61,208 bases of DNA from an uncultured Bacilli bacterium (GTDB lineage: Bacteria; Bacillota_I; Bacilli_A; RF39; UBA660): positions 1 through 61,208 of the forward strand of contig CANQGH010000002.1 in assembly GCA_947601845.1 (NCBI GenBank). Direction: 5' to 3'. The position numbers and the translations under genes were made by a program. Positions 11,726 to 40,929 of this stretch are shown here, piece after piece. The notes beneath the pieces were generated by a model. It was not told where the DNA came from and did not search any database. It saw only the letters and a list, made by a program, of their open reading frames with translations. Each line of letters opens with the position of its first letter. The stretch's first letter is position 1.

Positions 11726-11738
11726 GGAGGGAAAAATA

Positions 11739-18489: not shown

Positions 18490-19164
18490 ATGGAAGAAAT
18501 AAATTTAAAGGATTTTTTAACTTATATAGTTAAAAAAATACCAATTATAATATGCATTACCTTATTGGTACTTTTATTAGGAATAGAATATGCTGTATTT
18601 TTGAAAACACCACTATACAGTGGCGATACCACAATATTGTTGGTACAAGATCATGGAGACTCAAGCATGACTCAAAATGATGTTGCCCTAAACCAAAAAT
18701 TAGTGGCCACTTATAGTGAAATTATTAAAAGTAGAAGAGTATTAAATCAAGTAATTGAGCAATTACAGTTAGACTATACAGCTGGAGCATTATCTAATAA
18801 GATTACGGTATCCAGTATCAATGATACCGAAATTATCAAAATTAGTGTAAGTGATGAAGATTCTGAAACAGCATGTGTTATTGCTGATACGATAGCAAGT
18901 GTTTTTGAAAAAGAAATAGTAGAACTTTATAACTTGAAAAATGTTTCCATTATTGATGAGGCAGAAATAAAAGATCAACCATATAACATTAATACGGTTA
19001 GAGACTTAATTATATTCTTCTTAGCAGGAGCTGTTTTATCAGTAGGTGTTGTCTTTGTCTTCTATTACTTTGATACATCAATTAAATCTAGCGAAGAAAT
19101 AGAAGCTAAATTAGGGGTTACCGTAATAGGTAGTGTACCCTTATATAAGAGAAAGAAAAAATAA
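18490..19164 (+). CDS. cpsC: Polysaccharide co-polymerase / tyrosine-kinase modulator (Wzz, CpsC/YwqC-like)
   Basis: 224 aa with two TM segments flanking an extracytoplasmic Wzz-type domain. It sits immediately upstream of the BY-kinase. Confidence 0.85.
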   Translation: MEEINLKDFLTYIVKKIPIIICITLLVLLLGIEYAVFLKTPLYSGDTTILLVQDHGDSSMTQNDVALNQKLVATYSEIIKSRRVLNQVIEQLQLDYTAGALSNKITVSSINDTEIIKISVSDEDSETACVIADTIASVFEKEIVELYNLKNVSIIDEAEIKDQPYNINTVRDLIIFFLAGAVLSVGVVFVFYYFDTSIKSSEEIEAKLGVTVIGSVPLYKRKKK

Positions 19165-19182
19165 AGGAGGAGGGGTGTAATT

Positions 19183-19881
19183 ATGAATAATGAATTATTA
19201 GTTATAAAGAAACCTTACTCATCTTTTAGCGAAGAAATTAAAAGAGTAAGAACCAATATTAAGTTTTCTGCTGTAGATGAAGCTGTAAAAGTAATTATGA
19301 TTACTTCTTCAGTAGCAGGAGAAGGTAAAAGCTTTATGGCAGCCAATTTAGCAACAGCTTTTGCATTAAATAATGAAAAAGTGTTAATTATTGATTGTGA
19401 TTTAAGAAAAGGAAGACAAAATAAAATATTTGGTATTGCTTGTGAAGAAAACGAAGGATTTTCTAATTTATTATTAGATAAACTTTGGGATGAGCGATAC
19501 ATGGATTATGTTAAACCTACTAAAGTTAAAAAATTAAGTATCATTCCAACGGGGCCTTATCCACCAAATCCATCTGAACTTTTAGCAAGCACTAAATGTA
19601 AGAATCTAATTGATAGATATAAACAGTTCTTTGATGTTATAATATTAGATTGCCCACCAGTATTGGGACTTAATGATTCATTAGTAGTATCAACATATGC
19701 TGATTTATCTATTATTGTGGCAGCACATAAGAAAACACCAATGGATTTATTAATTGAATCTAAGAAATCATTAGAAAATGTAGGTGCAAAGAAAATAAAT
19801 GTCATCCTAAATAAGGTTGATTCTAAAGATAACCCATATTATTCAAGTTATTATACTAATGATGAAGTGGATAAAGAATAA
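19183..19881 (+). CDS. cpsD: BY-family protein tyrosine kinase (CpsD/YwqD-like)
   Basis: Walker A SSVAGEGKS, Walker A' IIDCDLRK, Walker B VIILDCPP, and a C-terminal Tyr cluster NPYYSSYYTND. Confidence 0.9.
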   Translation: MNNELLVIKKPYSSFSEEIKRVRTNIKFSAVDEAVKVIMITSSVAGEGKSFMAANLATAFALNNEKVLIIDCDLRKGRQNKIFGIACEENEGFSNLLLDKLWDERYMDYVKPTKVKKLSIIPTGPYPPNPSELLASTKCKNLIDRYKQFFDVIILDCPPVLGLNDSLVVSTYADLSIIVAAHKKTPMDLLIESKKSLENVGAKKINVILNKVDSKDNPYYSSYYTNDEVDKE

Positions 19882-20669
19882 TGAAAGATATACATAGTCA
19901 TATCCTATTTGGAATAGACGATGGTAGTGAAACTTTAAATGAAAGTATTAAGTTAATCAAACAAGCTGTAGATAATGGATATACAGATTTAATATTGACA
20001 CCACATTATAGGAAAAAACAAGGTTTCACAAGTAGTAATGAGAAAAAAAGAAAGATATTTGATATCTTACAACAAGAAGTAATAAGAAAGAATATGGGGG
20101 TTAAGCTTTATTTAGGTAATGAAATTACATTAGATGATGATTTATTATATTACCTAGATGCTGATTTAGTGACATCATTAAATGATAGTAAATATTTATT
20201 ATTAGAACTTCCTTTTAGAAGTAAAATTAGTAATAAGAAATTAGAAGAAATTATTGATGAATTAAATCATAGAGGTTATAAAATAATTATTGCCCATCCT
20301 GAGAGATATAGAGCTTATAGATCATTAGATGATTTTACTAAGCTTATTGATAAAGGCGTATACTTTCAAGGAAACATTGAGTCATTATATGGCAAATGGG
20401 GTAATGAAGCTCAAAAAGTGTTAGAAGATATGTTAAAAAGACATATGATTCATTTCATTGGTAGCGATATTCATCATAGTAATCAAAAAAGTTATACCTT
20501 AAAAGATGAATTACTATCAAAATTAGAACAATTAACAGAAGATAGCGAAATGGTTAAAGATTTGGTCGATAGAAATATTGATAAAGTTATTCATAATGAA
20601 GACATTAAACTATATCCTGTTAGACAAAGAAGAAGAAGACTTAGACTTATACCAACTGGTGGAAGATAA
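19881..20669 (+). CDS. cpsB: PHP-family protein-tyrosine phosphatase (CpsB/YwqE-like)
   Basis: MKDIHSHILFGIDDGS, TPHY, AHPERY and GSDIHH metal-binding motifs. The start overlaps the cpsD stop (TAATG). Confidence 0.9.
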   Translation: MKDIHSHILFGIDDGSETLNESIKLIKQAVDNGYTDLILTPHYRKKQGFTSSNEKKRKIFDILQQEVIRKNMGVKLYLGNEITLDDDLLYYLDADLVTSLNDSKYLLLELPFRSKISNKKLEEIIDELNHRGYKIIIAHPERYRAYRSLDDFTKLIDKGVYFQGNIESLYGKWGNEAQKVLEDMLKRHMIHFIGSDIHHSNQKSYTLKDELLSKLEQLTEDSEMVKDLVDRNIDKVIHNEDIKLYPVRQRRRRLRLIPTGGR

Positions 20670-20704
20670 AGTTAATATATAGAGTAATATAGGAGGGTTT
20701 GGAA

Positions 20705-21397
20705 ATGTACAAATATGTGAAAAGAATATTAGATTTAGTCTTAGCATTAATATGTATTATCGTTTTTACAATACCAATGATTATAATTGCTATTGCTATA
20801 AAATTAGATAGTAGAGGACCTGTATTCTTTAAACAAGAAAGGACAGGACTACATGGTAAATCTTTTAAACTTTATAAGTTTAGAAGTATGGTGGTTGATA
20901 ATGATGTTCATGACTTTAGTAAGGAAGATAAGCATACTAAAGTAGGTAATTTTCTTAGAAAGACTAGTTTAGATGAATTAGGTCAATTAATAAATATAAT
21001 TAAAGGTGATATGTCTTTTATTGGGCCTAGACCTTGGATACCAGATTATTATGATGCGATGAATGAAGTACAAAGACATAGATGTGATGTTTTACCTGGT
21101 ATTACAGGACTAGCTCAAGCTAGAGGTAGAAATAATATTACAATATTTCAAAAGATTAATTATGATTTGGAATATGTAGAGAATTTTTCTTTCAAAGAAG
21201 ATATTAAAGTGGTATTTTTAACTATTAAAACAGTTCTTTCCAAAGAGGGAGCAGATGCTGGTAAGAATACTATCCATAATGAGTTAGAAGAATTAAGAAA
21301 TCAAAAACACCAAATATACAATAATATAAAAAAACATAGAAAAAGCGATAGCATTAAACAAGGCGAAAACACTGTAGAAGGAATGCAATATATATAA
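20705..21397 (+). CDS. Initiating undecaprenyl-phosphate sugar-phosphate transferase (small monotopic PGT, PglC/EpsL-like)
   Basis: KRILDLVLAL...SRGPVFFKQERTGLHGKSFKLYKFRSM...DELGQLINIIKGDMSFIGPRP is the bacterial sugar transferase signature. ATG 20705 follows SD aggaggg. Confidence 0.9.
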   Translation: MYKYVKRILDLVLALICIIVFTIPMIIIAIAIKLDSRGPVFFKQERTGLHGKSFKLYKFRSMVVDNDVHDFSKEDKHTKVGNFLRKTSLDELGQLINIIKGDMSFIGPRPWIPDYYDAMNEVQRHRCDVLPGITGLAQARGRNNITIFQKINYDLEYVENFSFKEDIKVVFLTIKTVLSKEGADAGKNTIHNELEELRNQKHQIYNNIKKHRKSDSIKQGENTVEGMQYI

Positions 21398-21418
21398 TAA
21401 GCAACGAGGGTGAGAATT

Positions 21419-22240
21419 ATGAATGAAAAGTTTTCAGTTTTAATGAGTGTATATTATAAAGAAAATCCTAAGTTTTTAAAAGAAGCGTTAGATAGTGTTT
21501 TTAATCAAACATTAAAACCAAGTGAGGTGGTATTAGTTGTTGAGGGAAAACTACCTAATGAATTAGATAGTGTTTTAAAAAAATTAAAATCCAAGTATGA
21601 TTGTATAAAAACTTATGATGTTGAAGCTGGTAAAGGTTTAGGAGCTTCATTAAATTATGGGTTAACTAAATGTAAGTATAATTATGTTATGCGTGCTGAT
21701 ACTGATGATATATGTGTTAATACTAGATTCGAAGTAGAAATGGATTTTATGTTAAATCATAATGAGATAGATGTTCTTGGTTCTTCCATATATGAATTTA
21801 AAGAAAGCATAAACGAAAAAGATATTAGATTAAAAAATATGCCAACCGGTGCCGCAATTTATAATTATGCAAAAAAGAGAAATCCGCTAAATCACATGAC
21901 AGTTTGCATGAAAAAAGATGCAGTTTTAAAGGCTGGAAATTATAGCACTCAAAAAATGTTAGAAGATTACGAGCTATGGATAAGAATGATTAATAACGGT
22001 ATGAAATTGGAAAATATAAATATTCCTCTTGTATATGCAAGAATTGGGAATGGTTTTGAGAAAAGAAGAGGGAGTAAGCAGCAAATTTCATTGTGGAAAA
22101 AAATGCAAAAATATATGTATGAAAACAATATGATAGGAGTAACGCGATATTGTATAAATATTATAAACATGTATTTAATGGTATATACGCCAAATTTTGT
22201 TAGAAAATTTGCTTATAAGTATATTTTGAGAAGTAGTTAA
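21419..22240 (+). CDS. Glycosyltransferase family 2
   Basis: FSVLMSVYYKENPKFLKEALDSVFNQT ... ADTDD (DxD). Confidence 0.8.
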   Translation: MNEKFSVLMSVYYKENPKFLKEALDSVFNQTLKPSEVVLVVEGKLPNELDSVLKKLKSKYDCIKTYDVEAGKGLGASLNYGLTKCKYNYVMRADTDDICVNTRFEVEMDFMLNHNEIDVLGSSIYEFKESINEKDIRLKNMPTGAAIYNYAKKRNPLNHMTVCMKKDAVLKAGNYSTQKMLEDYELWIRMINNGMKLENINIPLVYARIGNGFEKRRGSKQQISLWKKMQKYMYENNMIGVTRYCINIINMYLMVYTPNFVRKFAYKYILRSS

Positions 22241-22253
22241 GGGGGAAAATATA

Positions 22254-23231
22254 ATGGTAATAACTAGAACACCATTTAGAATTAGTTTATGCGGTGGTGG
22301 AAGCGATATTGATACGTTTTATAAAAAACATGGTGGCTGTGTATTGAGTACAACTATTAATAAATATATGTATATAACAAGCCATCCATCATTTGATAAA
22401 AGAATGACAGCTTTAAAATACTCTAAGACAGAAATAGTAACCAATGTCAATGATATACAACATAATATTTTTAGGGAATGTTTAAAAAAAGAAAAAGTTG
22501 AAGGATTAGAGATAACATCTATAGCTGATGTTCCAAGTGGAACTGGTCTTGGTTCATCGAGTTCATTTACCGTTGGTTTGATACAAAACTTAAAATGTTA
22601 TAAGAGAGAATATGCAACTAAAGAAGAATTAGCTCAGTTAGCATGTGATTTGGAAAATAATGTTGTTCATACAACTAATGGAAAACAAGATCAGTATGCA
22701 GCTGCCTATGGGGGACTAAACTTTTATAAATTTAATAAAGATGGAAGTGTAGATGTTGAACCGGTTTTAATGGATTATGTTGCATTTAAGCAATTAGAAA
22801 AAAACTTAATAATGTTATATGTTGGTGGAGAACATCGTGCATCTGAAATATTAAATGAACAATCTAAAAATATTATTAGTGCCAAAGATAAAGAAGAAGG
22901 GCAAAAGAAAATTATGGAAATGACTTATACCTTAAAGTATGAGTTAGAACATAATAACATTGATAAAGTTGGTGAAATACTGGATTATAATTGGAAAATA
23001 AAAAAGACACTAGCAAATGGTATTTCAAATAAATTTTTTGATGAAGTATATGATAAGGCAATTAAAGCTGGTGCTATTGGTGGAAAACTTTTAGGCGCTG
23101 GTGGAAGTGGATTTTTCTTATTTTATGTACCAGAAGGAAAACAAAAGAATTTTAGAGAAGTAATGAAAGATTTGTCAGAAATGGAATTTAAATTCGATCA
23201 TCAAGGAACTACGGTTATATTTGTTAATTAG
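22254..23231 (+). CDS. hddA: D-glycero-alpha-D-manno-heptose 7-phosphate kinase (GHMP kinase)
   Basis: TRTPFRISLCGGGSDI, GHMP motif PSGTGLGSSSS, and C-terminal GGKLLGAGGSGFFLF. It sits with gmhA and hddC-gmhB. Confidence 0.8.
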   Translation: MVITRTPFRISLCGGGSDIDTFYKKHGGCVLSTTINKYMYITSHPSFDKRMTALKYSKTEIVTNVNDIQHNIFRECLKKEKVEGLEITSIADVPSGTGLGSSSSFTVGLIQNLKCYKREYATKEELAQLACDLENNVVHTTNGKQDQYAAAYGGLNFYKFNKDGSVDVEPVLMDYVAFKQLEKNLIMLYVGGEHRASEILNEQSKNIISAKDKEEGQKKIMEMTYTLKYELEHNNIDKVGEILDYNWKIKKTLANGISNKFFDEVYDKAIKAGAIGGKLLGAGGSGFFLFYVPEGKQKNFREVMKDLSEMEFKFDHQGTTVIFVN

Positions 23232-23241
23232 GAGGGAAAAA

Positions 23242-24186
23242 ATGAGAGCATTAGTCACTGGAGGAGCAGGATTTATAGGAACACATTTAGTTGAGAGATT
23301 GTTAAATGATGGGAATGAGGTTATCGTTGTTGATAACTTTACTTTAGGAAAACAGGAAAATGTTGATAAATTTAAGAACAATAAAAACTATAAATTTTAT
23401 ATGCTAGATATTTCTGATAACGAACGCTTTTGCCAAGAATTAAAAGATGAACAAATAGATATTGTTTATCACTTAGCAGCTAATAGTGATATTCAAAAGG
23501 GTGGAAAAAATCCAAATGTTGATTATCGCGATACGTTTATGACAACTCGTGGTGTTCTTGAGTTGATGAGAAGAAATAATATTAAAAATTTATTTTTTTC
23601 ATCTACTTCAGCTATATATGGCGATGAACATGGTAAATTACTTACTGAAGATTTAGGCGGATTATTACCAATATCATATTATGGTAGCGCTAAAGCAGCT
23701 TCAGAGAATTTTATTTCTTCATATTCATATATGAACGATTTTAACACTATGATTTTCAGATTTCCAAATGTAATAGGTCCAAATTTAACACATGGGGTTA
23801 TTCACGATTTTACAAAAAAATTATTAAATAATCCAAATGAATTAGAAATATTAGGAGATGGGACACAAACAAAACCATATATATATGTTCTTGATTTAAT
23901 TGATTGTATTATGATGATGACCAAAGAAATAAAAAAAGGTGTTAATATATATAATGTAGGTGTTGAAACGGCAACTTCTGTTACTAGAATAGCAGATATA
24001 GTATGTGAAGAGTTGGGCTATAAAAATGTTGTTTATAAATATACTGGTGGAAATGTTGGATGGAAGGGTGATGTTCCTAAATTTCAATATGATCTAACTA
24101 AAATCCATAGTGTTGGATGGAATGCAAAATATACATCTGATGAAGCTGTTAGAGAAACGGTAAAATCATTAAGGCACGGCAAATAG
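23242..24186 (+). CDS. NAD-dependent epimerase/dehydratase (SDR), probably a nucleotide-heptose-modifying enzyme
   Basis: VTGGAGFIGTHL Rossmann motif and YGSAK catalytic motif. ATG 23242 follows SD aggaggg. Confidence 0.75.
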   Translation: MRALVTGGAGFIGTHLVERLLNDGNEVIVVDNFTLGKQENVDKFKNNKNYKFYMLDISDNERFCQELKDEQIDIVYHLAANSDIQKGGKNPNVDYRDTFMTTRGVLELMRRNNIKNLFFSSTSAIYGDEHGKLLTEDLGGLLPISYYGSAKAASENFISSYSYMNDFNTMIFRFPNVIGPNLTHGVIHDFTKKLLNNPNELEILGDGTQTKPYIYVLDLIDCIMMMTKEIKKGVNIYNVGVETATSVTRIADIVCEELGYKNVVYKYTGGNVGWKGDVPKFQYDLTKIHSVGWNAKYTSDEAVRETVKSLRHGK

Positions 24187-24188
24187 TT

Positions 24189-24699
24189 ATGAATATTGAC
24201 CCAAATAAAGGAATTTTTTATACAATTAGGAAACACATGCAACATTACAATCCAGAAAAATATTGGAAGTACAGAAATATTGTAACCGACCCAAATAATA
24301 AAACAAGTAAAATTATAAAGATATTTATGTTATATAAAATAAAAAAAAGTGATGCATATAATAATGCCTCATTTGGCACGAATTTAAATAGTGGAGCATA
24401 TTTTCAATCACCTCCTAAATTACCTCATGGATTAAACGGAATAATCATATCACATCATGCAAAGGTGGGGGGGGGCCACTATCTTTCAACAGGTAACGGT
24501 TGCTGATGATCCACATAAACCTGGTGAGTCTGCTACGATAGGCAATAATGTATTAATTGGTGCAGGTGCAAAAATTATCGGAGCTGTAAAGATTGGTGAT
24601 AATGTGAAAATTGGTGCTAACGCTGTAGTCGTGAGTGATATACCAGATGGTTGTACAGCTGTTGGGGTGCCAGCTAAAGTTGTCAAAAAATCTAAATAA
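24189..24699 (+). pseudogene. Hexapeptide-repeat O-acetyltransferase (serine acetyltransferase-like), frameshifted in a G9 tract
   Basis: ORFs 24189..24506 and 24457..24699 are the two halves of one LbH acetyltransferase. Removing one G gives ...HHAKVGGATIFQQVTVADD...IGAGAKIIGAVKIGDNVKIGANAVV. Confidence 0.8.
24467..24475 (+). repeat. Homopolymeric G9 tract (candidate slipped-strand switch)
   Basis: Nine consecutive G counted directly. All other G runs I saw in the window are 5 or shorter, except the G10 at 38709. Confidence 0.9.
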
Positions 24700-24743
24700 A
24701 GAAAGGAAGGTATCAGTCAAATATTCGATTGGTAGAATGATAT

Positions 24744-26075
24744 ATGAAAGCAGTTATTCAAGCTGGTGGGAAAGGCACTAGAGTTAGTAGTATTACTGGA
24801 GATAAAATCCCTAAACCAATGTTAGAAGTATCTGGATATCCTGTTTTATATCATCAAATTATGAACTTAAAAAAATCAGGTATTACTGATATTATTATAA
24901 TAATCTGTCACCTAGCTAATGTAATAAAAGATTATTTTGGTGATGGTAGTAAAATGGGCGTAAATATATATTATATAGAGGAAGATGAAAATAATCCTCT
25001 TGGGACAGCGGGTGCTCTTTATAATTTAAAAGATAAAATAAGCGATGATTTTATATTTTTATTAGCCGATGTTTTTATAGATATAGACTTTGAAAAAATG
25101 TATAATTTTCATAGAAATAAGAAAGCGGATGTTACTTTATTAACACATCCTAATAGTCATCCATTCGATAGCGATTTAGTTGTTGTTGGCGATGATGATA
25201 AAGTTTTAAAATTTGATAATAAAGATAATGATAGAACTTCTTATAACTACCACAACTTAGTTAATGCTGGTGTTATGATATTTTCACCTAATACTTTAAA
25301 TTATATTGAGAAGTCGAAAAAATATAGTTATGAGAAAGATATTATTTTACCCTCAATAGAAAAAGGAAAAGTATATTCATATAAATCATCTGAGTATGCC
25401 AAAGATATGGGAACTCCTGAAAGATACGAAAATGTTCAAAAAGATTATATTCAACATTTGCCAGAAAAGAAAAATCTCAAAAATAAGCAAAAGTGTATTT
25501 TCTTAGATAGAGATGGAACTATTAATAATTATGTGGGCTTTTTGAGAAAAGAAGAAGAGATGACTTTAATTGACGGGGCATCTTTAGCAATTCGCGAAAT
25601 TAATAATTCAGAGTATTTATGTATAGTCATAACTAATCAACCAGTTATTGCAAGAGGTGAAGTGACTGTTGAAGAGTTAGAAAATATAAATATGAAGATG
25701 GAAAAATTATTAGGGAATGATGGGGCCTATATAAATGGTTTATATTATTGCCCACATCATCCAGATAAAGGTTTTGATGGTGAAGTACCAGAATTGAAAA
25801 TTGATTGCGATTGTCGAAAACCAAAAATTGGTTTATTGGAAAAAGCAGCTAAAGACTTTAATATTGATTTAGAAAAATCTATTGTTATAGGGGATTCAAC
25901 CTTGGATATTAAGATGGCAGAGAATGCAGGAATGACATCCATATTAGTAAAAACTGGTCAAGCAGGTTTAGACAATAAATATGATGTACATCCAACGTAT
26001 GTAGCAAAAGATTTGCTGGATGCTGTAAATAGTTATATAATTAAGAAAGGAGACAAAGAAAATGGAAAATTTTAA
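24744..26075 (+). CDS. Bifunctional D-glycero-alpha-D-manno-heptose 1-phosphate guanylyltransferase / D,D-heptose 1,7-bisphosphate phosphatase
   Basis: The N-terminus QAGGKGTRV...PKPML is nucleotidyltransferase-type. The C-terminal HAD domain IFLDRDGTIN ... CPHHP...CDCRKP ... GDS is GmhB-type, including a Zn site. Confidence 0.8.
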   Translation: MKAVIQAGGKGTRVSSITGDKIPKPMLEVSGYPVLYHQIMNLKKSGITDIIIIICHLANVIKDYFGDGSKMGVNIYYIEEDENNPLGTAGALYNLKDKISDDFIFLLADVFIDIDFEKMYNFHRNKKADVTLLTHPNSHPFDSDLVVVGDDDKVLKFDNKDNDRTSYNYHNLVNAGVMIFSPNTLNYIEKSKKYSYEKDIILPSIEKGKVYSYKSSEYAKDMGTPERYENVQKDYIQHLPEKKNLKNKQKCIFLDRDGTINNYVGFLRKEEEMTLIDGASLAIREINNSEYLCIVITNQPVIARGEVTVEELENINMKMEKLLGNDGAYINGLYYCPHHPDKGFDGEVPELKIDCDCRKPKIGLLEKAAKDFNIDLEKSIVIGDSTLDIKMAENAGMTSILVKTGQAGLDNKYDVHPTYVAKDLLDAVNSYIIKKGDKENGKF

Positions 26076-26661
26076 AGATGCAATTAAACAATATTATGAT
26101 AGGGAAATAAGGGTTATTACTAATTTAAATTTAGATGAAATTAATGAGGCAATGAATGCTATTTATGATACATATAAAAATAATGGAACTATTTATGTGT
26201 GCGGAAATGGTGGTAGTGCAGCAACTGCATCTCATATGCAAAATGATTTTAATAAAGGAATATCTGAATACGTTGATAAAAAGTTTAGATTTTATTGTTT
26301 AAATGATAATTATCCTACTGTTATGGCCATTGCTAATGATATTGGGTATGATGAGATTTTTAGATTTCAATTAATAAATAAAATAAACAAAAATGATTTA
26401 TTTGTTGGCATAAGTGGTTCTGGAAATTCAAAAAATGTTTTAAATGCTGCAGAGTATGCTAAAGAGCAGGGAGCAAAAGTTTTAGGAATTACTGGATATA
26501 AAGGCGGTAAATTAAAAGAACTTGCTGATTATAAAATGCATGTAGATGAGGAAGATATGCAAATAGATGAAGATATTCATATGACTTTTGATCATATGAT
26601 GATGAAAATATTTTATAATTTCTTAGTCAAAAACGAAATTACTGGAAATAATTTAAAATAA
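26062..26661 (+). CDS. gmhA: Sedoheptulose 7-phosphate isomerase (SIS domain)
   Basis: CGNGGSAATASHMQNDF and ISGSGNS motifs; 199 aa; overlaps the upstream gene by 14 nt. Confidence 0.85.
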   Translation: MENFKDAIKQYYDREIRVITNLNLDEINEAMNAIYDTYKNNGTIYVCGNGGSAATASHMQNDFNKGISEYVDKKFRFYCLNDNYPTVMAIANDIGYDEIFRFQLINKINKNDLFVGISGSGNSKNVLNAAEYAKEQGAKVLGITGYKGGKLKELADYKMHVDEEDMQIDEDIHMTFDHMMMKIFYNFLVKNEITGNNLK

Positions 26662-26706
26662 AAATTATACCTTTAATATATTCATGTAAGTAAAAGGGTG
26701 GTAGTG

Positions 26707-27789
26707 ATGGCAAGAGTATTGTATATAATTAATTATTTAAAAAATAGCGGTCCATCTAGAGTTGTTCTTAATTTGTTGAAAACAATAAACAAATCAAAGT
26801 TTGAAGTTTCTATAATTACATTAAAAAATGATGATGATGAAAAAATCATTAACGAATTAAAACAATTGAGTATAGATGTGATACAACTTAAATATTCCAA
26901 TAATAAAGAAATTGTAAAAAATACAACAAAGATAAGAAAGTGTATTAATAGTAAGAATGCCGATATCATACATTCACACGGAATTATTCCAGATTTCATT
27001 ATTTCTAGCGATGTCATATGTGCTAAGAAAATAACAACAATTCATAATAATATGTTTGAAGATTATATACTTTCATATGGTAAATTTAAAGGAAGTTTGA
27101 TGTGTAAAATTCATTTAATCATTTTAAAAAAAATTGATAAGATAGTATGCTGCTCTAAAAGTTCGTATGCTTCATTAGAAAATTGTGTGAAAAATATAAC
27201 ATACATTAGAAATGGTTCAGATATTGACAAAACAACAAATAAAATATTAAGAAAAGATATTGGCATTCCACGTGATGCTTTTGTATATATTTATTGTGGT
27301 GTTTTAACTAAAGGAAAAAGAGTAATAGAACTAATAGATAAATTTAATAATAGTTTAAAAGCAAATGAATATTTGCTGATTTTGGGAAATGGCCCTTTGT
27401 ATGAAGAAGTTATGAAATATTCTAGTGATCATATAAAAGTACTAGGATTTCAAAAAAATGTCATGGATTTTTATAGTATTTCAAATGTATATGTTTCTAA
27501 CTCGAGTTCAGAAGGATTTTCAATGTCGATTATTGAAGCTCTTGGGTGTAATTTGTATTTGTTACTTTCGGATATTCCATCACATAAAGAATGTTTCTTT
27601 ATCGATAATGAAGTTTATTTGGGCGAATATTTTAATGATGATAATTTCTTAGAGAAAAAAAATATTTTAACCGAAAAAATAAAAGTTGAACATAAGGTAT
27701 TGTTGCGTAATTTCCAAGAAAAGTATTTATCTAGTCGTGCAATGACAAATGAATATGAGAGAGAATATAGTTCATTAGTAAGAAAGTAA
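26707..27789 (+). CDS. Glycosyltransferase family 4 (GT-B)
   Basis: C-terminal SSSEGFSMSIIEALGCN (EX7E-type). ATG 26707 follows SD aagggtgg. Confidence 0.75.
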   Translation: MARVLYIINYLKNSGPSRVVLNLLKTINKSKFEVSIITLKNDDDEKIINELKQLSIDVIQLKYSNNKEIVKNTTKIRKCINSKNADIIHSHGIIPDFIISSDVICAKKITTIHNNMFEDYILSYGKFKGSLMCKIHLIILKKIDKIVCCSKSSYASLENCVKNITYIRNGSDIDKTTNKILRKDIGIPRDAFVYIYCGVLTKGKRVIELIDKFNNSLKANEYLLILGNGPLYEEVMKYSSDHIKVLGFQKNVMDFYSISNVYVSNSSSEGFSMSIIEALGCNLYLLLSDIPSHKECFFIDNEVYLGEYFNDDNFLEKKNILTEKIKVEHKVLLRNFQEKYLSSRAMTNEYEREYSSLVRK

Positions 27790-27817
27790 CTCAGCATGAC
27801 TGCATCCTGATATAAAA

Positions 27818-28070
27818 CTGAAATCAATTGTATTTATAATTGTTCCCGTTTACAATGTAAAAAAAAATTTGAATAGATGTGTTAATTCAATAATTAATCA
27901 AAGTTATAAAGATATAGAAAGAATTGCTTGACAAATAATTGTGAAAAAATTTTTGATAATTATAAAAATAATGATGGCTGAATAAAAACAATATACAAGT
28001 AAAATGATGATAGATTACGACAAAATATATAACGAATAAATAAAAATTATAGTATATACATATTAAATAA
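27818..28070 (+). pseudogene. Decayed family-2 glycosyltransferase remnant
   Basis: Translation gives IVFIIVPVYNVKKKFE*, a second frame gives INQSYKDIERIA*, and later comes NYKNNDG*IKTIYK*NDD. This is collinear with the GT2 N-terminus (VPVYNVEKYL..C..SI.NQSYKDIEII..DDGS...I.D.Y...D.RIK.I). There are multiple stops and frameshifts, and the DDGS segment is missing. Confidence 0.65.
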
Positions 28071-28093
28071 AATATTTAGAAAGGATGATTTTT

Positions 28094-29167
28094 TTGAAGA
28101 TTGCTTTATTTATAGGATCACTTACAGGTGGTGGAGCTGAAAGAGTAACAAGTAATTTAGCTAATTATTTAAGTAATATAAAAAATGATGTAACTGTAAT
28201 TACCATGTCTGATTGCAACAAAACATATAATTTAAATAACGAAGTTAATCATTTTAAATTATTAAAAAGTAACGAAAGAAAAAATGTTGTTTTTGATAAT
28301 ATATTAAGATATAAAAGACTAAAACAATATGTTATTGAACATCAGGATATTGATTGTTATATAGTTATGCTTCCTATTACTATTTTTATGTTAACTAAAT
28401 TAAAAAAATACACTAATGCTAAATTAATAATATCCGAGAGAAATAATCCCAAATCATACAAACTATATGAAAAATTAATTATGAAATATGCTCAAAGAAA
28501 ATGTGATGGGTTAGTGGTACAAACTCAAATAATAAAAGATTGGTATAATATTAACAATATTGAAGTGATTCCAAATGCAATTAATAATGAAATATTAATA
28601 AATGAAGAAAGAAAAAATATTAACAATAAAATTGTTGCGGTAGGAAGATTAAATAAACAAAAAAATTATCCAATGATGTTAAAAGCATTTAGTGTTTTTT
28701 CAAAAAAACATCCTGATTATATTTTGGAAATCTATGGTCAAGGTAAATTAGAAAAAAGTTTAAAAAATCTTGCAAAAAAATTGGAAATATCTGATAAAGT
28801 TTTTTTTAAAGGTTATGTTAAAGATGTTAGTGCAAAAATATATAATGCTAAAATGTTTATAATGACTTCAAACTTTGAAGGAATGCCAAATGCGTTAATA
28901 GAAGCAATGTGTTTGGGCTTACCTTGCATTTCAACTGATTGTGATGGTGGTGGCGCTAAAGATTTAATACAAAACATGGGAAATGGCATTTTAATAGGAA
29001 AAAATGATATAAAATCACTTATTAATTCGATGGAAATTCTTTCAAACAATGAAATGTTAGCAAACCAAATTGGTTTAAATGCTAAGAAATTAATAAAAGT
29101 TTTAAATTCTAATACTATTTATAAAAAGTGGTATGAATATATTAAAAAAATAATTAAAGAGGTATGA
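28094..29167 (+). CDS. Glycosyltransferase family 4 (GT-B)
   Basis: IALFIGSLTGGGAERV N-terminus and NFEGMPNALIEAMCLGLPCISTDC motif. TTG 28094 has better SD spacing than ATG 28085; either start is possible. Confidence 0.8.
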   Translation: MKIALFIGSLTGGGAERVTSNLANYLSNIKNDVTVITMSDCNKTYNLNNEVNHFKLLKSNERKNVVFDNILRYKRLKQYVIEHQDIDCYIVMLPITIFMLTKLKKYTNAKLIISERNNPKSYKLYEKLIMKYAQRKCDGLVVQTQIIKDWYNINNIEVIPNAINNEILINEERKNINNKIVAVGRLNKQKNYPMMLKAFSVFSKKHPDYILEIYGQGKLEKSLKNLAKKLEISDKVFFKGYVKDVSAKIYNAKMFIMTSNFEGMPNALIEAMCLGLPCISTDCDGGGAKDLIQNMGNGILIGKNDIKSLINSMEILSNNEMLANQIGLNAKKLIKVLNSNTIYKKWYEYIKKIIKEV

Positions 29168-29168
29168 T

Positions 29169-30473
29169 ATGAAAAAAACTATAAGCATTAAGCAATTAAA
29201 ACAATTATTATTTTTAATAGTAATTATTTTAATAATTTTTCTTACTAAGGTTTTATTGGTTAAAATAAACCCGTTAATTATTGATTTGCTTTTCCTTTTT
29301 ATCTTAATTTTTTTTGGCAAAGAAGAATTATTATATATGTTAGCATTTAGCTTGCCAATTATGGCTTGTTTTGATAATGTAGCTCATATTTTGTTAATAT
29401 ACTTAATATTAGTTTTTATAAAAAGTAAATTTAAAATTAGTTTAAAATATGTATTGGCATCATTGTTTTTTATAATATTGGAATTAATTGCTCATTATTA
29501 TTATAATGTATCAGATGTTAATAGAATGTTAGGTTATCTAACTTGTTTCTTGATTTTTTTGTATATCATAATAGAATTACCACATTGTAATATTAGTTAT
29601 AAAAAATTTTTAAAGATGTATATTTATGGCACTCTTACTTTATTTATCTTTTATCTTTTGACTATTTTTAGTTATTATAAAACAGCTGCATTTGGACTAC
29701 TATTGAATAATGATTTTAGATTAGGATCTTTTGTGCATGGCGATTTTGAATATTTAAGCATTAATATCAATGCTAATACTCTTGCTTTTTATGCATTAAT
29801 AGGAGTGTTTTTGCCTGTAGTGTTGAAAATAATTGATAAAGATTCAAAGAATAGGTTGCTGTATTATTTTACTCCAATTTTTACGGCAATTTTAGGATTT
29901 TTAACAAAATCAAGGAGTTTTATTATAGTGTTTATTTTAGGATTTTTTATAATTATTCTTATTAATTCAAAAACAAAAAAGCAAGTGTTTAATTCAATTA
30001 TTCTGATGTCACTAATTTCAATTATTTTGATAATATTACTAAATTCTAATAATGTAATATTAAAAAGTATAATTGACCGTTTTCATTCTTCAGATATGAG
30101 TACAGCGAGTGGACGTAGTGATTTGTTTAAACTTTATAACGATGCTTTTTTTAACAAAACATCTTACAAATTAATTGGATCCGGAGTTACTGATTATAAA
30201 TTAATTTATAATTTACCTAATTCTGTTCATAATGGTGTGCAACAAGTTTTAATTTCTTATGGATTATTTGGTTTTATAGTTTTTGCAAGTGTACTGATAT
30301 CTCCGATTATCAAGTATAGAAAAGATAAACTTATTTCTTTCGTACCTTTGTTCTTAGCATTTATATTTATTCAAACAATTCAATTATTAAATCCTTATAT
30401 GTTAATGTTTCCATTTGCCATCTGTTATGTAATGTTATATATTAATAATTGTGACAAATCAAAAATAAGGTGA
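29169..30473 (+). CDS. Wzy-type polysaccharide polymerase / O-antigen-ligase-like membrane protein
   Basis: 434 aa with at least 10 predicted TM helices and one larger loop. Located in a Wzx/Wzy locus. Confidence 0.6.
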   Translation: MKKTISIKQLKQLLFLIVIILIIFLTKVLLVKINPLIIDLLFLFILIFFGKEELLYMLAFSLPIMACFDNVAHILLIYLILVFIKSKFKISLKYVLASLFFIILELIAHYYYNVSDVNRMLGYLTCFLIFLYIIIELPHCNISYKKFLKMYIYGTLTLFIFYLLTIFSYYKTAAFGLLLNNDFRLGSFVHGDFEYLSININANTLAFYALIGVFLPVVLKIIDKDSKNRLLYYFTPIFTAILGFLTKSRSFIIVFILGFFIIILINSKTKKQVFNSIILMSLISIILIILLNSNNVILKSIIDRFHSSDMSTASGRSDLFKLYNDAFFNKTSYKLIGSGVTDYKLIYNLPNSVHNGVQQVLISYGLFGFIVFASVLISPIIKYRKDKLISFVPLFLAFIFIQTIQLLNPYMLMFPFAICYVMLYINNCDKSKIR

Positions 30474-30477
30474 TTTT

Positions 30478-31614
30478 ATGAAAAAAATATGTTTTTATAC
30501 AAATTCTATATATACTTTAGGCGGTATTCAAAGAGTAGTTACTGAATTAGCAAATAATTTATATAATGAATATGATATAACTATTGTGTGCCATGATAAC
30601 TCTAAATGGCACAAAAAGTTTAACTATAATTTAAATAAAAATATAAATGTTAAATCATTTAATGAAAAATATTTAATCTTAGATAATATTTTCTTTTTCC
30701 CTGTTAAATGTTTAAAATTTTTAATACGTAAAACTAAAATTAAGAATAAAATTACGGAAAGTATAATGAATTTTGATTATAAGTTTTTGAAAAGAAGGAC
30801 AATTCTTAAATACTTTAATTCCCAAAATTATGATTACATATTAGCAGAGGGTTTAAGTAATTGTATTTATTTGTCAAATTTAAAAGATAAGATACCTTCA
30901 AAAATAATTGGTTGTTGGCATTCGAGTTTTGATAATTATATAAAGCAATCTAGTGAAAAGTACATTATAAAATCTTTAAAGAGCATAGACACTATTGTAC
31001 TATCTAAATATGATGCTGATTTAATAAAAAAAAGATATAATATAGATGTTAAATATATATATAATTTTATTAATGATAATGAAGTGGAGAAATCATCTTT
31101 AAATAATAAATATATGATATCAATTGGAAGATATCATCAAGTAAAAGGGTATGAACGCTTAATAAAGATTTTTAAGAAATTAAATAATAATGAATGGAAA
31201 CTTCTAATAATTGGTGATGGTCCCGAAAAAAACAAGTTAGCTGCACTTATTGATAAATATCATTTAAATAACAATGTAATTTTAACGGGAGGTACCAATA
31301 ATGTTGAAAAATACTATAGACAGGCATCAATATTCTTAATGACATCATATGGAGAAGGGTTTCCAATGGTTATTTTAGAAGCAATGAAATATGGTTTGCC
31401 AATAATTGCTTATGATATACCAGTTTTGCACGAAATATTACCTAGCGAAGATTACATTATTAAGCAAGATGATGAAGAGTCATATGTGAAATTATTGAAA
31501 AAATTATGCGATGATGCAAAATTAAGAGTTAAAAGTGGTCAACTAAATTTAAAAAAATGTGAAAATTTTTATGGTAAAAAGATAATAAGTCAATGGAAAA
31601 ATGTATTAAAATAA
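30478..31614 (+). CDS. Glycosyltransferase family 4 (GT-B)
   Basis: TSYGEGFPMVILEAMKYGLPIIAYD motif. Confidence 0.8.
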   Translation: MKKICFYTNSIYTLGGIQRVVTELANNLYNEYDITIVCHDNSKWHKKFNYNLNKNINVKSFNEKYLILDNIFFFPVKCLKFLIRKTKIKNKITESIMNFDYKFLKRRTILKYFNSQNYDYILAEGLSNCIYLSNLKDKIPSKIIGCWHSSFDNYIKQSSEKYIIKSLKSIDTIVLSKYDADLIKKRYNIDVKYIYNFINDNEVEKSSLNNKYMISIGRYHQVKGYERLIKIFKKLNNNEWKLLIIGDGPEKNKLAALIDKYHLNNNVILTGGTNNVEKYYRQASIFLMTSYGEGFPMVILEAMKYGLPIIAYDIPVLHEILPSEDYIIKQDDEESYVKLLKKLCDDAKLRVKSGQLNLKKCENFYGKKIISQWKNVLK

Positions 31615-31638
31615 AAAATAGTTTTTAAAGGAGGTAAA

Positions 31639-32565
31639 ATGCAAAAATATTTTATAATTACAATAGATACTGAGGCAGATAATCAATGGAATAATAATCA
31701 AGCTTGTACGACTAAAAATTCTAAATATTTGCCAAGATTTCAGGAACTCGCTGAAAAATATAATTTTAAACCAGTTTGGTTAACAACTTACGAAATGGCA
31801 AATGATAATTTTTTTGTTAATTATTTTAAAGATAAATGTAACAAGGGTCTTTGTGAAATAGGAATGCACTTACATGCGTGGAACAATCCTCCTGAATATA
31901 ATTTGGTAAATAAGACTAATGAAAGATCATATCTGATTGAATATCCAAAAAATATAATGGAACAAAAAATAAAAGTATTAGATGAATTATTGACTAAAAA
32001 AATTGGTATAAAACCTGTTTCACACCGCGCTGGAAGATGGACAACTAATGAAGACTATTTTGAGTTACTTGAAAAATATGGATATAAAGTTGATTGTTCA
32101 GTTACACCTCATATATCATGGGAAAATCATTTGGGGCAAAGCGGTATTAAGGGTAGTAATTATAGTAACAGTCCAGAGAATCCTTATTTTATAAAAAATA
32201 AACTTTTAGAAGTTCCTGTAACAATAAGAATAATGCATAATATACAATTTGATCAAATTAAAAATATAAGAAATGCTGCGGGGGAATTATTTCACTTTTT
32301 AAAAGGTAGAACAGAATGGGTTCGCCCAAATAAAAATATGAATAAAAAGGGGATATTGAAATTAATTAAAAAGTGTAATAAGCATAATGATTACATTATG
32401 TTTATGTTACATTCTTCAGAATTAATGCCCAATGGCAGTCCAAATTTTTCAACTTATGAAAGTGTTGAACATTTATATACATTAATCGAAGAAATATTTC
32501 GTTATATTAGTAATTTGGGTTATACAGGGATTACTTTAAATGAATTTTATGAGAAGGTGAAATAA
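31639..32565 (+). CDS. Polysaccharide deacetylase-like (WalW-type) protein
   Basis: N-terminus FIITIDTEADNQW and HLHAW/HRAGRW histidine motifs resemble WalW-type CE4-like proteins. Recognised by pattern only. Confidence 0.45.
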   Translation: MQKYFIITIDTEADNQWNNNQACTTKNSKYLPRFQELAEKYNFKPVWLTTYEMANDNFFVNYFKDKCNKGLCEIGMHLHAWNNPPEYNLVNKTNERSYLIEYPKNIMEQKIKVLDELLTKKIGIKPVSHRAGRWTTNEDYFELLEKYGYKVDCSVTPHISWENHLGQSGIKGSNYSNSPENPYFIKNKLLEVPVTIRIMHNIQFDQIKNIRNAAGELFHFLKGRTEWVRPNKNMNKKGILKLIKKCNKHNDYIMFMLHSSELMPNGSPNFSTYESVEHLYTLIEEIFRYISNLGYTGITLNEFYEKVK

Positions 32566-33645
32566 ATGAATAAAATAGGGATAATAACATATCACAATAC
32601 AATAAACTATGGAGCCTTATTGCAATCATTTGCTTTAGAATCAAAGTTAAAAGAATTAGGTGCTGATGTTGATATTATTAATTATCATTGTAAAAATGTT
32701 GAAGATAGAGAACATGTAAAATTTCCATCATTTGAGCTTAATATTATTAATTTTTTGAAAAATATAAAATATTATTTCAGCACCACAAAAAAAAGAAAAG
32801 CAATGAACAATTTTTTAAATAAATATATTAAAATTTCTAAACAAGAATACAATATAAAAAATATAAAAAATAGCAATGATTTATATGATAAATTTGTGGT
32901 TGGATCCGATATGGTTTTTGAATTAAATATTAATGGTGGTGATTTAACATATTACCTTGATTTTGCGGATTCCAAAAAAAGATATTCATATGCCGCAAGT
33001 TTAGGCATAGATAAAATTGATAATAAATATTTATCAAATTGTATAAATGAGTTGGAAAAATTTCAACATTTATCCGTTAGAGAAGAACAAGCAAAAGAAT
33101 ATTTTGGCAAGATATTAAAAAACAAGGTCTATGTGGATGTGGATCCGACTTTATTATATGATAAATTTTTTTGGCAAAAATATGAAGAAAAGCCCAAAGA
33201 CAAAATAAATAGAAAATATATGTTATTATATTTCCTAAATGAAACTATGCCTGAATTTAACATTGCTAGAGAAATTGCCGAAAAAAATAATTGGGATATA
33301 TATGTTTTGTCTAATAGTAAAGAAAAAATAAACGGGTGTAAAGTTATATATAATGCCTCAGTAGGTGAGTTTTTATATTATATTCATAATGCTGCGTTAG
33401 TATTAACGGCATCATATCATGGCATGATTTTTTCAATAAACTATAATACTAATTTTATGTATTTTTGTAAGAAAAAAGATGCATCTAGGTTAGATAATAT
33501 TGCAATTTTAACAGGATTAACTAATAGGAAATTAACGGAAACAAATTTGCCTGAAATACAATGCGATTTTGATAATGCCAATAAAGTTATTAGTAAACTC
33601 CGCAATAAATCAATAGATTATTTAAAAACACTAGTAGATGAATAA
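32566..33645 (+). CDS. Polysaccharide pyruvyl transferase
   Basis: KIGIITYHNTINYGALLQSFAL N-terminus and ASYHGMIFS near the C-terminus are typical of the WcaK/CsaB-type family. Confidence 0.7.
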   Translation: MNKIGIITYHNTINYGALLQSFALESKLKELGADVDIINYHCKNVEDREHVKFPSFELNIINFLKNIKYYFSTTKKRKAMNNFLNKYIKISKQEYNIKNIKNSNDLYDKFVVGSDMVFELNINGGDLTYYLDFADSKKRYSYAASLGIDKIDNKYLSNCINELEKFQHLSVREEQAKEYFGKILKNKVYVDVDPTLLYDKFFWQKYEEKPKDKINRKYMLLYFLNETMPEFNIAREIAEKNNWDIYVLSNSKEKINGCKVIYNASVGEFLYYIHNAALVLTASYHGMIFSINYNTNFMYFCKKKDASRLDNIAILTGLTNRKLTETNLPEIQCDFDNANKVISKLRNKSIDYLKTLVDE

Positions 33646-33660
33646 TAAATAGGAGGAGAT

Positions 33661-35190: not shown

Positions 35191-35244
35191 ACTATTAAAA
35201 TTAATAAATGTGTGATAAAATTTAAAAATAGTTTGGAGGATTAA

Positions 35245-36234: not shown

Positions 36235-36275
36235 ATTTAATTAATATATTATTAAGAAAATAAGAGGGTAATTAT

Positions 36276-37325: not shown

Positions 37326-37494
37326 CATGAATCAAAAGTTGTTTTAAAAGTTGTTTTAAAATTAGTTTATAATGAATAATTATTACAAAACAATTTAAAA
37401 ATTTAATTCATTTTATGATTAGCAATAAATGCAGAAAATAATTAATTTTGTACTATAGGGTAACAAAATATTTAATAGGAGAGGTGTTTTAAAT

Positions 37495-38460: not shown

Positions 38461-38500
38461 AATTTTAAAGATTATAATTTTACATAAGAAATAGTTGATT

Positions 38501-38622: not shown

Positions 38623-38638
38623 AAAGGAAGGAAAACAA

Positions 38639-39157: not shown

Positions 39158-39183
39158 TTACAAAGGAATAGGAGAATATAATA

Positions 39184-40353: not shown

Positions 40354-40394
40354 AAAATAGCAAAAATTGGTAATTTTTATAGAAAGGAAATCAT

Positions 40395-40889: not shown

Positions 40890-40929
40890 ACTATTAATGT
40901 AGTTTTCTGAAAAGCTGTTAGGAGGAGAA

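What the first reader, a model, noticed from the sequence alone, without database searches (positions are those of the whole stretch)
24189..24699. Capsule O-acetyltransferase gene interrupted by a G9 tract: candidate phase-variable OFF state
A hexapeptide-repeat acetyltransferase is split into two overlapping ORFs exactly at a run of nine G (24467-24475). Removing one G (G8) or adding two (G11) restores a single 169-aa LbH protein (...HHAKVGGATIFQQVTVADD...). In this very AT-rich window all other G runs I saw are 5 or shorter, apart from a second tract in the other acetyltransferase gene. Poly-G slipped-strand switches in capsule-modification genes are classic in Campylobacter, which also makes heptose capsules, and in Neisseria and Haemophilus. 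As far as I know they are not a commonly described feature of Firmicute capsule loci.
Basis: partly seen in the sequence, partly recalled or inferred. Interest (0 to 1): 0.7.

Follow-up and report, generated by a model that had tools for sequence, protein, structure and literature searches.

The report
Poly-G switch in capsule acetyltransferase gene
A run of nine G bases breaks a sugar-coat acetyltransferase gene in an uncultured gut bacterium, and related strains carry the same run at lengths that turn the gene on or off, so this is most likely a reversible slippage switch of a well-known kind, here in an unstudied Gram-positive lineage.

Summary
G9 at 24467-24475 splits a hexapeptide-repeat (CysE/EpsC-like) acetyltransferase, AT1, into 105-aa and 80-aa ORFs. 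G8 gives 169 aa and G11 gives 170 aa. The only other G/C run of 6 or more in the 61 kb window (27% GC) is an in-frame G10 in a second, LacA/NeuO-like acetyltransferase, AT2.

Comparative data support phase variation:
- Six diverged AT1 alleles (75-88% nt identity where measured, synonymous sites near saturation) keep a G8-G10 tract at the same codon.
- Two loci 99% identical over 6.5 kb differ by one G: G9 intact, G8 split.
- dN/dS is 0.04-0.12 on both sides of the tract.
- In a G10-OFF allele found in six strains, all seven polymorphic codons downstream of the tract are synonymous in the ON frame.
- Across 116 homolog loci, G/C runs of 7 or more are concentrated inside this gene (p = 7e-9).

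Not shown: length heterogeneity within this strain. Every record of the window's own allele is G9, and these records are not independent. One relative also carries a nonsense codon.

Verdict: a probable slipped-strand contingency locus caught OFF. It is a new member of a known kind (Campylobacter poly-G genes, E. coli K1 neuO, pneumococcal wciZ) in an uncultured Bacilli gut MAG lineage.

The parts
24189..24699 (+). AT1: CysE/EpsC-like hexapeptide-repeat (LbH) acetyltransferase gene, frameshifted in this assembly (OFF)
   Evidence: The repaired product is 169 aa (G8) or 170 aa (G11). Pfam Hexapep scores 41 bits (cut-off 27). The segment LPHGLNG aligns with the LDHA-TG segment of serine acetyltransferase 6wye.
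24467..24475 (+). G9 homopolymer tract, the proposed slipped-strand switch. G8 and G11 are ON; G7, G9, G10 and G12 are OFF.
   Evidence: A tract at the same site is present in L001/L007, L002, L003-5, L009, L060, L061-65 and L137.
24189..24506 (+). OFF-state product 1: 105-aa N-terminal fragment ending ...AKVGGGHYLSTGNGC*. It lacks the C-terminal LbH coils.
24457..24699 (+). OFF-state ORF 2: 80-aa C-terminal LbH part, in the frame of the functional protein. It is called as a separate gene in the public contig.
   Evidence: dN/dS for this half is 0.04-0.08 against the other alleles.
38639..39157 (+). AT2: LacA/WbbJ/NeuO-like hexapeptide acetyltransferase, 172 aa, intact (ON)
   Evidence: GAT 1kqa E = 1e-22; NeuO 3jqy E = 1e-9.
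38709..38718 (+). G10 tract at codons 24-27 of AT2 (LRGGGV). G10 and G13 are ON; G8, G9, G11 and G12 are OFF.
   Evidence: The closest homologs (about 75-78% identity) read LRKxGV and have no Gly-Gly-Gly there, so the tract is specific to this allele.
18490..42555 (+). Wzy-type capsule/exopolysaccharide locus holding both acetyltransferases. It encodes CpsC/D/B-like proteins, a priming transferase, glycosyltransferases, Wzy, a pyruvyl transferase, UDP-glucose dehydrogenase and an LCP protein.
22254..26661 (+). Heptose-nucleotide gene block around AT1: HddA-like kinase (22254-23231), epimerase/dehydratase (23242-24186), AT1, HddC-GmhB fusion (24744-26075), GmhA (26062-26661)
   Evidence: These are the best NCBIfam matches; most are below the equivalog cut-offs.

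Best explanation
AT1 is a phase-variable (contingency) gene. During replication, the G9 run in its coding strand gains or loses a G by slipped-strand mispairing.

- At G8 or G11 the gene encodes a full left-handed beta-helix acetyltransferase, which presumably O-acetylates a sugar of the capsule/EPS repeat unit.
- At G9, as assembled, or at G10 or G12, translation stops 11 or 7 codons after the tract. Only the N-terminal part is made and the acetyl-CoA-binding coils are missing (OFF).
- AT2 carries an independent G10 switch near its 5' end and is ON here.

Together the two switches would allow four O-acetylation states of one polysaccharide within a clonal population. That would vary epitopes seen by host antibody and receptors used by phages.

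Shown: the tract, the frame logic, conservation of the tract, length differences between close relatives, and the selection signatures.
Inferred: the switching rate, heterogeneity inside this population, the enzyme's acceptor, and the ecological benefit.
For: 1. The tracts are non-random. There are two runs of 9 or more against 0.006-0.015 expected, no runs of 6-8, and both lie in the two hexapeptide acetyltransferase genes, which are 1.7% of the window.
2. The site is the same in six alleles:
 - window, G9, OFF
 - P0001/L002, G9, ON
 - P0002/L003-5, G9, ON
 - L009, G8, OFF
 - P0135/L060, G8, ON
 - P0004/L137, G8, ON
 - P0130/L061-65, G10, OFF

3. L003 and L009 are 99.05% identical over 6.5 kb and 99.8% in the gene, but differ by one G. 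That gives 171 aa against 102 + 79 aa.
4. Between alleles dS is 0.5-3.1, yet the (GGG)n run persists although GGG is a rare Gly codon. dN/dS is 0.04-0.12 in both halves.
5. In the G10-OFF allele, sampled in six strains 0.4-1.6% apart, all 7 polymorphic codons downstream of the tract are synonymous in the ON frame. That half has therefore been translated in frame during recent history.
6. Both ON spacings occur naturally: K-x-G-G-x-T as in P0135, and K-x-G-G-G-x as in P0001.
7. The AT2 tract was created in this allele at two variable residues.
8. L060 also has a G10 in an adjacent Acyl_transf_3 gene.
9. Across 116 homolog loci, 16 of 41 G/C runs of 7 or more fall inside the acetyltransferase gene, which is 7% of the sequence (p = 7e-9). 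L116 and L127 are frameshifted at their tracts.
Against: - No read-level data were available. No ON version of the window's allele exists in the protein collection. All six contig records of its 80-aa fragment imply G9, and at least some come from the same strain or dataset.
- The G10 allele is OFF in all six strains sampled, and one of them (L001/L007) also has TGT->TAA next to the tract. OFF states can therefore persist and decay.
- The mutation rate of G9 in this organism, and its mismatch-repair status, are unknown.
- O-acetylation and its acceptor are inferred from family membership only. NCBIfam EpsC and CysE scores are below their cut-offs.
Confidence: 0.7

Rival explanations
1. AT1 is a fixed pseudogene. 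The G tract is only a mutational hotspot that has permanently inactivated AT1 in this lineage, with no adaptive switching.
For: - Every record of the window allele is G9, and no ON form is on record.
- The related G10 allele is OFF in all six strains, and L001/L007 has an added nonsense codon.
Against: - The downstream 80 codons have no further stops. dN/dS for that half is 0.04-0.08 against other alleles.
- 7 of 7 polymorphisms downstream of the tract in the OFF allele group are synonymous in the ON frame.
- The tract is retained across alleles whose synonymous sites are near saturation, against codon bias.
- ON and OFF versions of one allele coexist in the same sample series.
Confidence: 0.15
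2. The frameshift is a homopolymer sequencing or assembly error. The true tract is in frame (G8 or G11) and the gene is simply intact.
For: - The contig is a short-read metagenome assembly (NODE_232, coverage about 18).
- Poly-G runs are hard to sequence. Assemblies from two other datasets that are 100% identical to the window over what they cover break at or near the tract: L068 ends on its first G, and L058 starts 10 nt after it.
Against: - Tract lengths are reproducible. G10 appears in six different samples, including one run with a DRR accession (DRR848764). G9 appears in three samples and G8 in another for the sister allele.
- At about 18x coverage a consensus error is unlikely.
- In the same contig the G10 in AT2 is in frame.
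Confidence: 0.08
3. The G9 DNA is stable, and the gene is expressed by recoding. RNA polymerase slippage on the G run, or ribosomal frameshifting, yields some full-length enzyme from the out-of-frame gene.
For: The C-terminal frame is under purifying selection although it is out of frame in all records of two alleles. From general knowledge, long homopolymers can cause transcriptional slippage.
Against: - Many alleles carry the tract in frame, and a dedicated recoding site would not need that.
- Length differs between near-identical loci at the DNA level.
- From general knowledge, slippage is best documented for A/T runs. No stimulatory structure was sought or seen.
Confidence: 0.05

Closest known systems
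Campylobacter poly-G/C contingency genes in capsule, LOS and flagellar-glycan modification loci (PMC8355987, PMC6321876, PMC3068675)
   Same: These are intragenic G homopolymers of about 8-11 nt in an AT-rich genome. They lie in surface-glycan modification genes and give ON/OFF states by frameshift. The tracts are conserved while their lengths differ among strains. A heptose-containing capsule pathway lies nearby.
   Different: The phylum is different: a Gram-positive, spore-former-like uncultured Bacilli lineage (SpoIID is present). Only two tracts occur in 61 kb. The switching rate and mismatch-repair status are unknown. The targets here are LbH acetyltransferases, not methyl- or MeOPN-transferases.
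E. coli K1 NeuO, a phase-variable capsule O-acetyltransferase (PMC3046976)
   Same: NeuO is an LbH-family capsule O-acetyltransferase whose translation is switched by a slippage-prone repeat in the 5' coding region. AT2 matches the NeuO structure 3jqy by sequence (E = 1e-9) and also carries its tract near the 5' end.
   Different: NeuO uses a heptanucleotide VNTR (AAGACTC)n and is prophage-encoded. Here the repeat is a mononucleotide G run and the genes sit inside the chromosomal cps locus.
Streptococcus pneumoniae wciZ (serotype 15B/15C) and S. aureus icaC (PMC4432689)
   Same: These are Firmicute capsule or exopolysaccharide O-acyltransferase genes switched reversibly by slipped-strand mispairing. 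The switch changes antigenicity without losing the polymer.
   Different: They use other repeat types; a (TA)n repeat in wciZ and a tetranucleotide repeat in icaC are from my own knowledge. The enzymes belong to membrane acyltransferase families rather than the soluble LbH fold.
Bifidobacterium breve pilus-locus replication-slippage switch (PMC9187656)
   Same: It is a replication-slippage ON/OFF switch in a surface structure of a Gram-positive gut commensal. It was demonstrated by ultra-deep sequencing, which is the method needed here.
   Different: It is in Actinobacteria with a high-GC genome. The target is pilus genes, not capsule modification.

Membership tests
SSR-driven phase-variable (contingency) gene | A hypermutable simple sequence repeat lies within the ORF or promoter | tested here: met
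   G9 at 24467-24475 lies inside AT1, and G10 at 38709-38718 lies inside AT2.
SSR-driven phase-variable (contingency) gene | Unit changes in repeat number toggle between a full-length and a truncated product | tested here: met
   AT1: G8 and G11 are full length; G7, G9, G10 and G12 are truncated. AT2: G10 and G13 are full length; the others tested are truncated.
SSR-driven phase-variable (contingency) gene | The repeat is over-represented relative to base composition and codon usage, and is conserved in position | tested here: met
   Two runs observed against 0.006-0.015 expected, and no GGG-GGG dicodon in 40 other ORFs. The site is the same in six alleles with dS of 0.5-3.1.
SSR-driven phase-variable (contingency) gene | Repeat length is polymorphic among closely related strains | tested here: inconclusive
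   Met for the sister allele: L003-5 have G9 and L009 has G8 at 99% locus identity. Not seen for the window's own allele, where all records are G9 and are not independent.
SSR-driven phase-variable (contingency) gene | High-frequency, reversible switching within a clonal population | not testable with these tools
   This needs raw reads or cultures. Assemblies from two other datasets that cover this locus break at or near the tract, which is compatible but uninformative at their low coverage.
SSR-driven phase-variable (contingency) gene | A switchable phenotype, here the presence or absence of an O-acetyl group on the polysaccharide | not testable with these tools
   No isolate is available and no chemistry was done.
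Hexapeptide-repeat (LbH) acyltransferase superfamily | Hexapeptide repeats detected above the curated threshold | tested here: met
   Pfam PF00132 scores 41 bits for AT1 and 61.7 bits for AT2, against a cut-off of 27.
Hexapeptide-repeat (LbH) acyltransferase superfamily | The conserved His-containing segment upstream of the CoA-binding coils is retained | tested here: met
   AT1 LPHGLNG aligns with LDHA-TG of serine acetyltransferase 6wye. His80 is invariant in 16 homologs. That this His is catalytic rests on general knowledge of the family.
EpsC / CysE serine O-acetyltransferase equivalogs (NCBIfam NF041874, TIGR01172) | The whole-protein score reaches the curated equivalog cut-off | tested here: not met
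   EpsC scores 91.6 bits against 150, and CysE scores 77 bits against 210.65. AT1 is CysE-like in fold only. It should be filed as a polysaccharide-locus LbH acetyltransferase of unknown acceptor.

The most novel reading that the evidence does not exclude
Poly-G contingency loci of the Campylobacter type may be a general, so far unrecognised strategy of uncultured Gram-positive gut bacteria. In this reading, G/C tracts have arisen repeatedly and at several positions in polysaccharide O-acyltransferase genes: CysE-like LbH, LacA/NeuO-like LbH and Acyl_transf_3. That would give combinatorial, reversible O-acetylation of capsules across many Bacilli and Clostridia MAG lineages from rabbit, ruminant and human guts.
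Probability: 0.45. Interest if true: 0.6.

Novelty: new member of a known kind. Interest (0 to 1): 0.45.

Why it matters
Slippage-driven phase variation of surface glycans is textbook biology for a few Gram-negative pathogens. It is barely charted in Gram-positive gut commensals, where attention has gone to invertible promoters and epigenetic switches.

If confirmed, this locus and its many relatives would show three things:
- Uncultured AT-rich Bacilli diversify capsule O-acetylation through homopolymer switches.
- Frameshifted "pseudogenes" in MAG annotations can be live genes in the OFF phase.
- Tract-length counting in existing metagenomic reads could track host or phage selection on capsule epitopes in vivo.

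The mechanism itself would not be new.

Tried and rejected
- Exact look-up of the 105-aa ORF found nothing. The public gene call uses a later start (89 aa). The 80-aa fragment and neighbouring genes worked instead.
- A degenerate DNA pattern spanning the tract found nothing in metagenome contigs. The protein-alignment scan that followed returned mostly distant homologs; the closest was 75% identical.
- Naming the organism failed beyond 'uncultured Bacilli bacterium'. The BipA search gave only unnamed or 'MAG: Bacilli bacterium' hits at 90% or below, and cluster look-ups carried no names.
- The contig breaks at or near the tract were considered as evidence of read heterogeneity. This was rejected as uninformative because coverage there is about 2x or unknown.
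- Two-colour poly-G read artefacts were considered and rejected. The runs are internal, 8-10 nt long, encode Gly-Gly(-Gly) in frame in several alleles, and recur at one codon across projects.
- A genuine cysteine-biosynthesis CysE was rejected. The scores are below the equivalog cut-offs and the gene sits inside the cps operon.
- An 80-aa protein made from the internal ATG at 24457 was considered unlikely, because reading the sequence shows no Shine-Dalgarno-like motif upstream.
- Literature checks for meningococcal OatC phase variation did not yield a citable passage, so it is not used as evidence.
- Structure prediction was not run. Natural in-frame variants already show that both loop lengths are tolerated.

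Full report
**1. What is in the sequence**

Window 24460-24480 reads CAAAGGT-GGGGGGGGG-CCAC. The G run covers 24467-24475. It separates an ORF at 24189-24506 (105 aa) from an overlapping ORF at 24457-24699 (80 aa).

Resizing the run in silico gives one 169-aa protein at G8 and one 170-aa protein at G11. G7, G9, G10 and G12 give truncated products.

The repaired protein passes Pfam Hexapep (41 bits, cut-off 27). Its best NCBIfam hits are EpsC (91.6 bits, cut-off 150) and CysE, both below cut-off. Against solved structures it aligns with the C-terminal half of serine acetyltransferases. The LPHGLNG segment lies over LDHA-TG of 6wye. The tract is at residues 94-96, just after that segment and before the remaining beta-helix coils. 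The OFF product therefore lacks the C-terminal coils.

**2. Is it more than chance?**

The window is 27.3% GC. Apart from this G9 and a G10 at 38709-38718, no G or C run exceeds 5. The expected number of runs of 9 or more is 0.006-0.015. No run of 6-8 is seen, although about 1.3-2.5 runs of 6 or more would be expected. GGG is only 9.4% of Gly codons, and none of 56 Gly-Gly dicodons in 40 other ORFs is GGG-GGG.

The G10 lies at codons 24-27 of a second hexapeptide acetyltransferase, AT2 (38639-39157, 172 aa, in frame). AT2 is LacA/WbbJ-like and related to the polysialic-acid O-acetyltransferase NeuO. Its nearest homologs (about 75-78% identity) read LRKxGV where the window has LRGGGV, so the tract was created in this allele.

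**3. Context**

Both genes lie on the + strand of a Wzy-type capsule/EPS locus (about 18.5-42.5 kb). It encodes:
- CpsC/D/B-like proteins and a priming phosphotransferase;
- GT2 and GT4 glycosyltransferases;
- Wzy and a pyruvyl transferase;
- UDP-glucose dehydrogenase and LCP proteins.

AT1 sits inside a block that looks like a GDP-heptose pathway: HddA-like, HddC-GmhB fusion and GmhA.

The window matches contig ERZ27249221 NODE_232 (61,830 bp, coverage about 18). The closest AT1 relatives are in MAGs titled 'uncultured Bacilli bacterium', isolates Lapin-024 and Lapin-028. The only named relatives of the BipA protein are 'MAG: Bacilli bacterium' at 86-90%. A SpoIID homolog is present. A rabbit-gut origin is my inference from the isolate names and the shared ERZ accession series.

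**4. Comparative evidence**

A search with the repaired protein found full-length relatives with Gly-Gly(-Gly) at the tract position, and a 106-aa truncated relative. Fetching their DNA gave this series at one and the same codon:

| Allele / locus | Tract | State | Samples or note |
|---|---|---|---|
| window | G9 | OFF | - |
| P0001 / L002 (88% nt identity) | G9 | ON | - |
| P0002 / L003-5 | G9 | ON | three samples |
| P0002 allele in L009 (Lapin-024 bin108) | G8 | OFF, split into 102 + 79 aa | L003 and L009 are 99.05% identical over 6.5 kb |
| P0135 / L060 | G8 | ON | - |
| P0004 / L137 | G8 | ON | - |
| P0130 / L061-65 | G10 | OFF | five samples; ON would be G9 |
| P0130 allele in L001/L007 | G10 plus TGT->TAA | OFF | - |
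| P0005 / L138-139 | no tract (GGAAGGGGA) | intact | - |

Three points follow from the series. First, tract length differs between near-identical loci and flips the reading frame. Second, the in-frame alleles show both loop spacings that G8 and G11 would give in the window. Third, L060 also has an in-frame G10 in the neighbouring Acyl_transf_3 gene.

**5. Selection**

Between tract-bearing alleles dS is 0.5-3.1 and dN/dS is 0.04-0.12. This holds both upstream and downstream of the tract, including comparisons that involve the two OFF alleles. A run of rare GGG codons that survives this much synonymous turnover is best explained by selection for the tract itself.

Within the G10-OFF allele group (strains 0.4-1.6% apart), all seven polymorphic codons downstream of the tract are synonymous in the ON frame. 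Untranslated DNA would not be expected to show that pattern. Six of the seven are linked in one haplotype, so they may represent few events. The gene has nonetheless been read in frame during recent history, although every consensus assembly shows it OFF. This argues against an old pseudogene and for switching. The TAA in L001/L007 shows that individual lineages can still lose the gene.

**6. A wider pattern**

The analysis covered 116 loci with AT1 homologs from the genome and metagenome collections (829 kb). Of 41 G/C runs of 7 or more, 16 lie inside the acetyltransferase gene, which is 7% of the sequence (binomial p = 7e-9). The tracts sit at several positions (about codons 35, 95 and 108). 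In L116 and L127 the reading frame breaks at the tract, and in L119 within about 30 nt of it. L008 has three long G runs in one polysaccharide locus. The family therefore looks like a recurrent host of homopolymer switches in uncultured gut Firmicutes. I did not identify those organisms.

**7. What remains open**

No reads were available. The 80-aa G9-specific fragment is on six contig records, but at least the Logan ERR10663677 contig is 100% identical to the window over the 4.2 kb compared, and probably comes from the same data. Two other datasets with sequence 100% identical to the window over what they cover break at or near the tract. L068 ends on the first G, and L058 starts 10 nt after the run. 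That is compatible with heterogeneity but equally with low coverage. No ON form of the window allele is on record. The enzyme's acceptor, the switching rate and the mismatch-repair status are unknown.

**8. Mechanism and rivals**

- **Best explanation (0.70):** a slipped-strand ON/OFF switch in AT1, caught OFF, plus an independent switch in AT2, caught ON. Together they give combinatorial O-acetylation of one polysaccharide.
- **Fixed pseudogene at a hotspot (0.15):** disfavoured by the selection data in section 5.
- **Assembly error (0.08):** disfavoured because tract lengths reproduce across samples and projects.
- **Transcriptional or translational recoding (0.05):** no positive evidence.

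**9. Comparison with known systems**

It works like four known systems:
- Campylobacter poly-G contingency genes (PMC8355987, PMC6321876);
- the phase-variable LbH capsule O-acetyltransferase NeuO of E. coli K1 (PMC3046976);
- pneumococcal wciZ and S. aureus icaC (PMC4432689);
- the slippage switch of Bifidobacterium breve in the gut (PMC9187656).

The sequence-level criteria for a contingency gene are met. The population-level criteria (within-clone heterogeneity, reversibility, phenotype) could not be tested. AT1 is a member of the hexapeptide acyltransferase superfamily, but it is not an EpsC or CysE equivalog.

**10. Verdict**

This is a new member of a known kind. Interest is moderate (0.45). 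The mechanism is classical. The lineage, the two-switch arrangement and the family-wide recurrence of tracts are worth a read-level follow-up.

Noticed in passing
L008:1270-1280, 6111-6119, 9000-9009 (MAG W1P28.007, 39.6% GC): Three long G runs (G11, G9, G10) lie in one polysaccharide locus. They fall in an FrhB/FdhB-like gene, the AT1 homolog (in frame, about codon 37) and a DUF1796 gene. The DUF1796 reading frame ends about 17 nt after the G10 run, and a second ORF overlaps there.
   Followed up: partly
L060:5621-5630: An in-frame G10 tract lies in an Acyl_transf_3 (PF01757) membrane acyltransferase gene, immediately upstream of the AT1 homolog, which has its own G8 tract. A third acyltransferase family therefore carries a poly-G run in a related cps locus.
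   Followed up: partly
L001/L007:3234-3236: The codon right after the G10 tract is TAA, where five sister strains have TGT (Cys). This is a two-base change that makes the copy non-rescuable by slippage. It could be real decay or a post-homopolymer sequencing error.
   Followed up: partly
window 43954-45835: An AbiLi/AriA-like AAA ATPase (PADLOC AbiLi, E = 4e-50) and an overlapping 252-aa ORF with no family hit sit between two LytR-CpsA-Psr genes at the end of the cps locus. This may be an inserted abortive-infection-type defence pair.
   Followed up: partly
window 50666-54552: An HTH + IrrE/M78 peptidase protein matches PADLOC RmrA (E = 1e-39). It is followed by small ORFs with no hits and an AAA+ ATPase with weak DolB/IetA matches. 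This may be a defence or prophage-remnant island.
   Followed up: no
window 12279-12869: A 231-nt unit is repeated 2.6 times (90% matches) inside the 1011-aa surface protein with Listeria-Bacteroides-type repeats (11718-14753). Repeat-number variation of a surface protein is possible.
   Followed up: no
window 48104-48210: A 51-nt unit is repeated 2.1 times, and by eye the consensus looks more GC-rich than its surroundings. It lies in the intergenic region upstream of alanine racemase (48433-49629). No Rfam family matches at gathering threshold.
   Followed up: no
window 24359-24486 versus L067, L058, L068: Assemblies from two other datasets, 100% identical to the window over what they cover, stop at or near the AT1 tract. 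One ends at 24358 after an A8 run, one ends at 24467 on the first G, and one restarts at 24486. Possible causes are low coverage or tract heterogeneity.
   Followed up: partly
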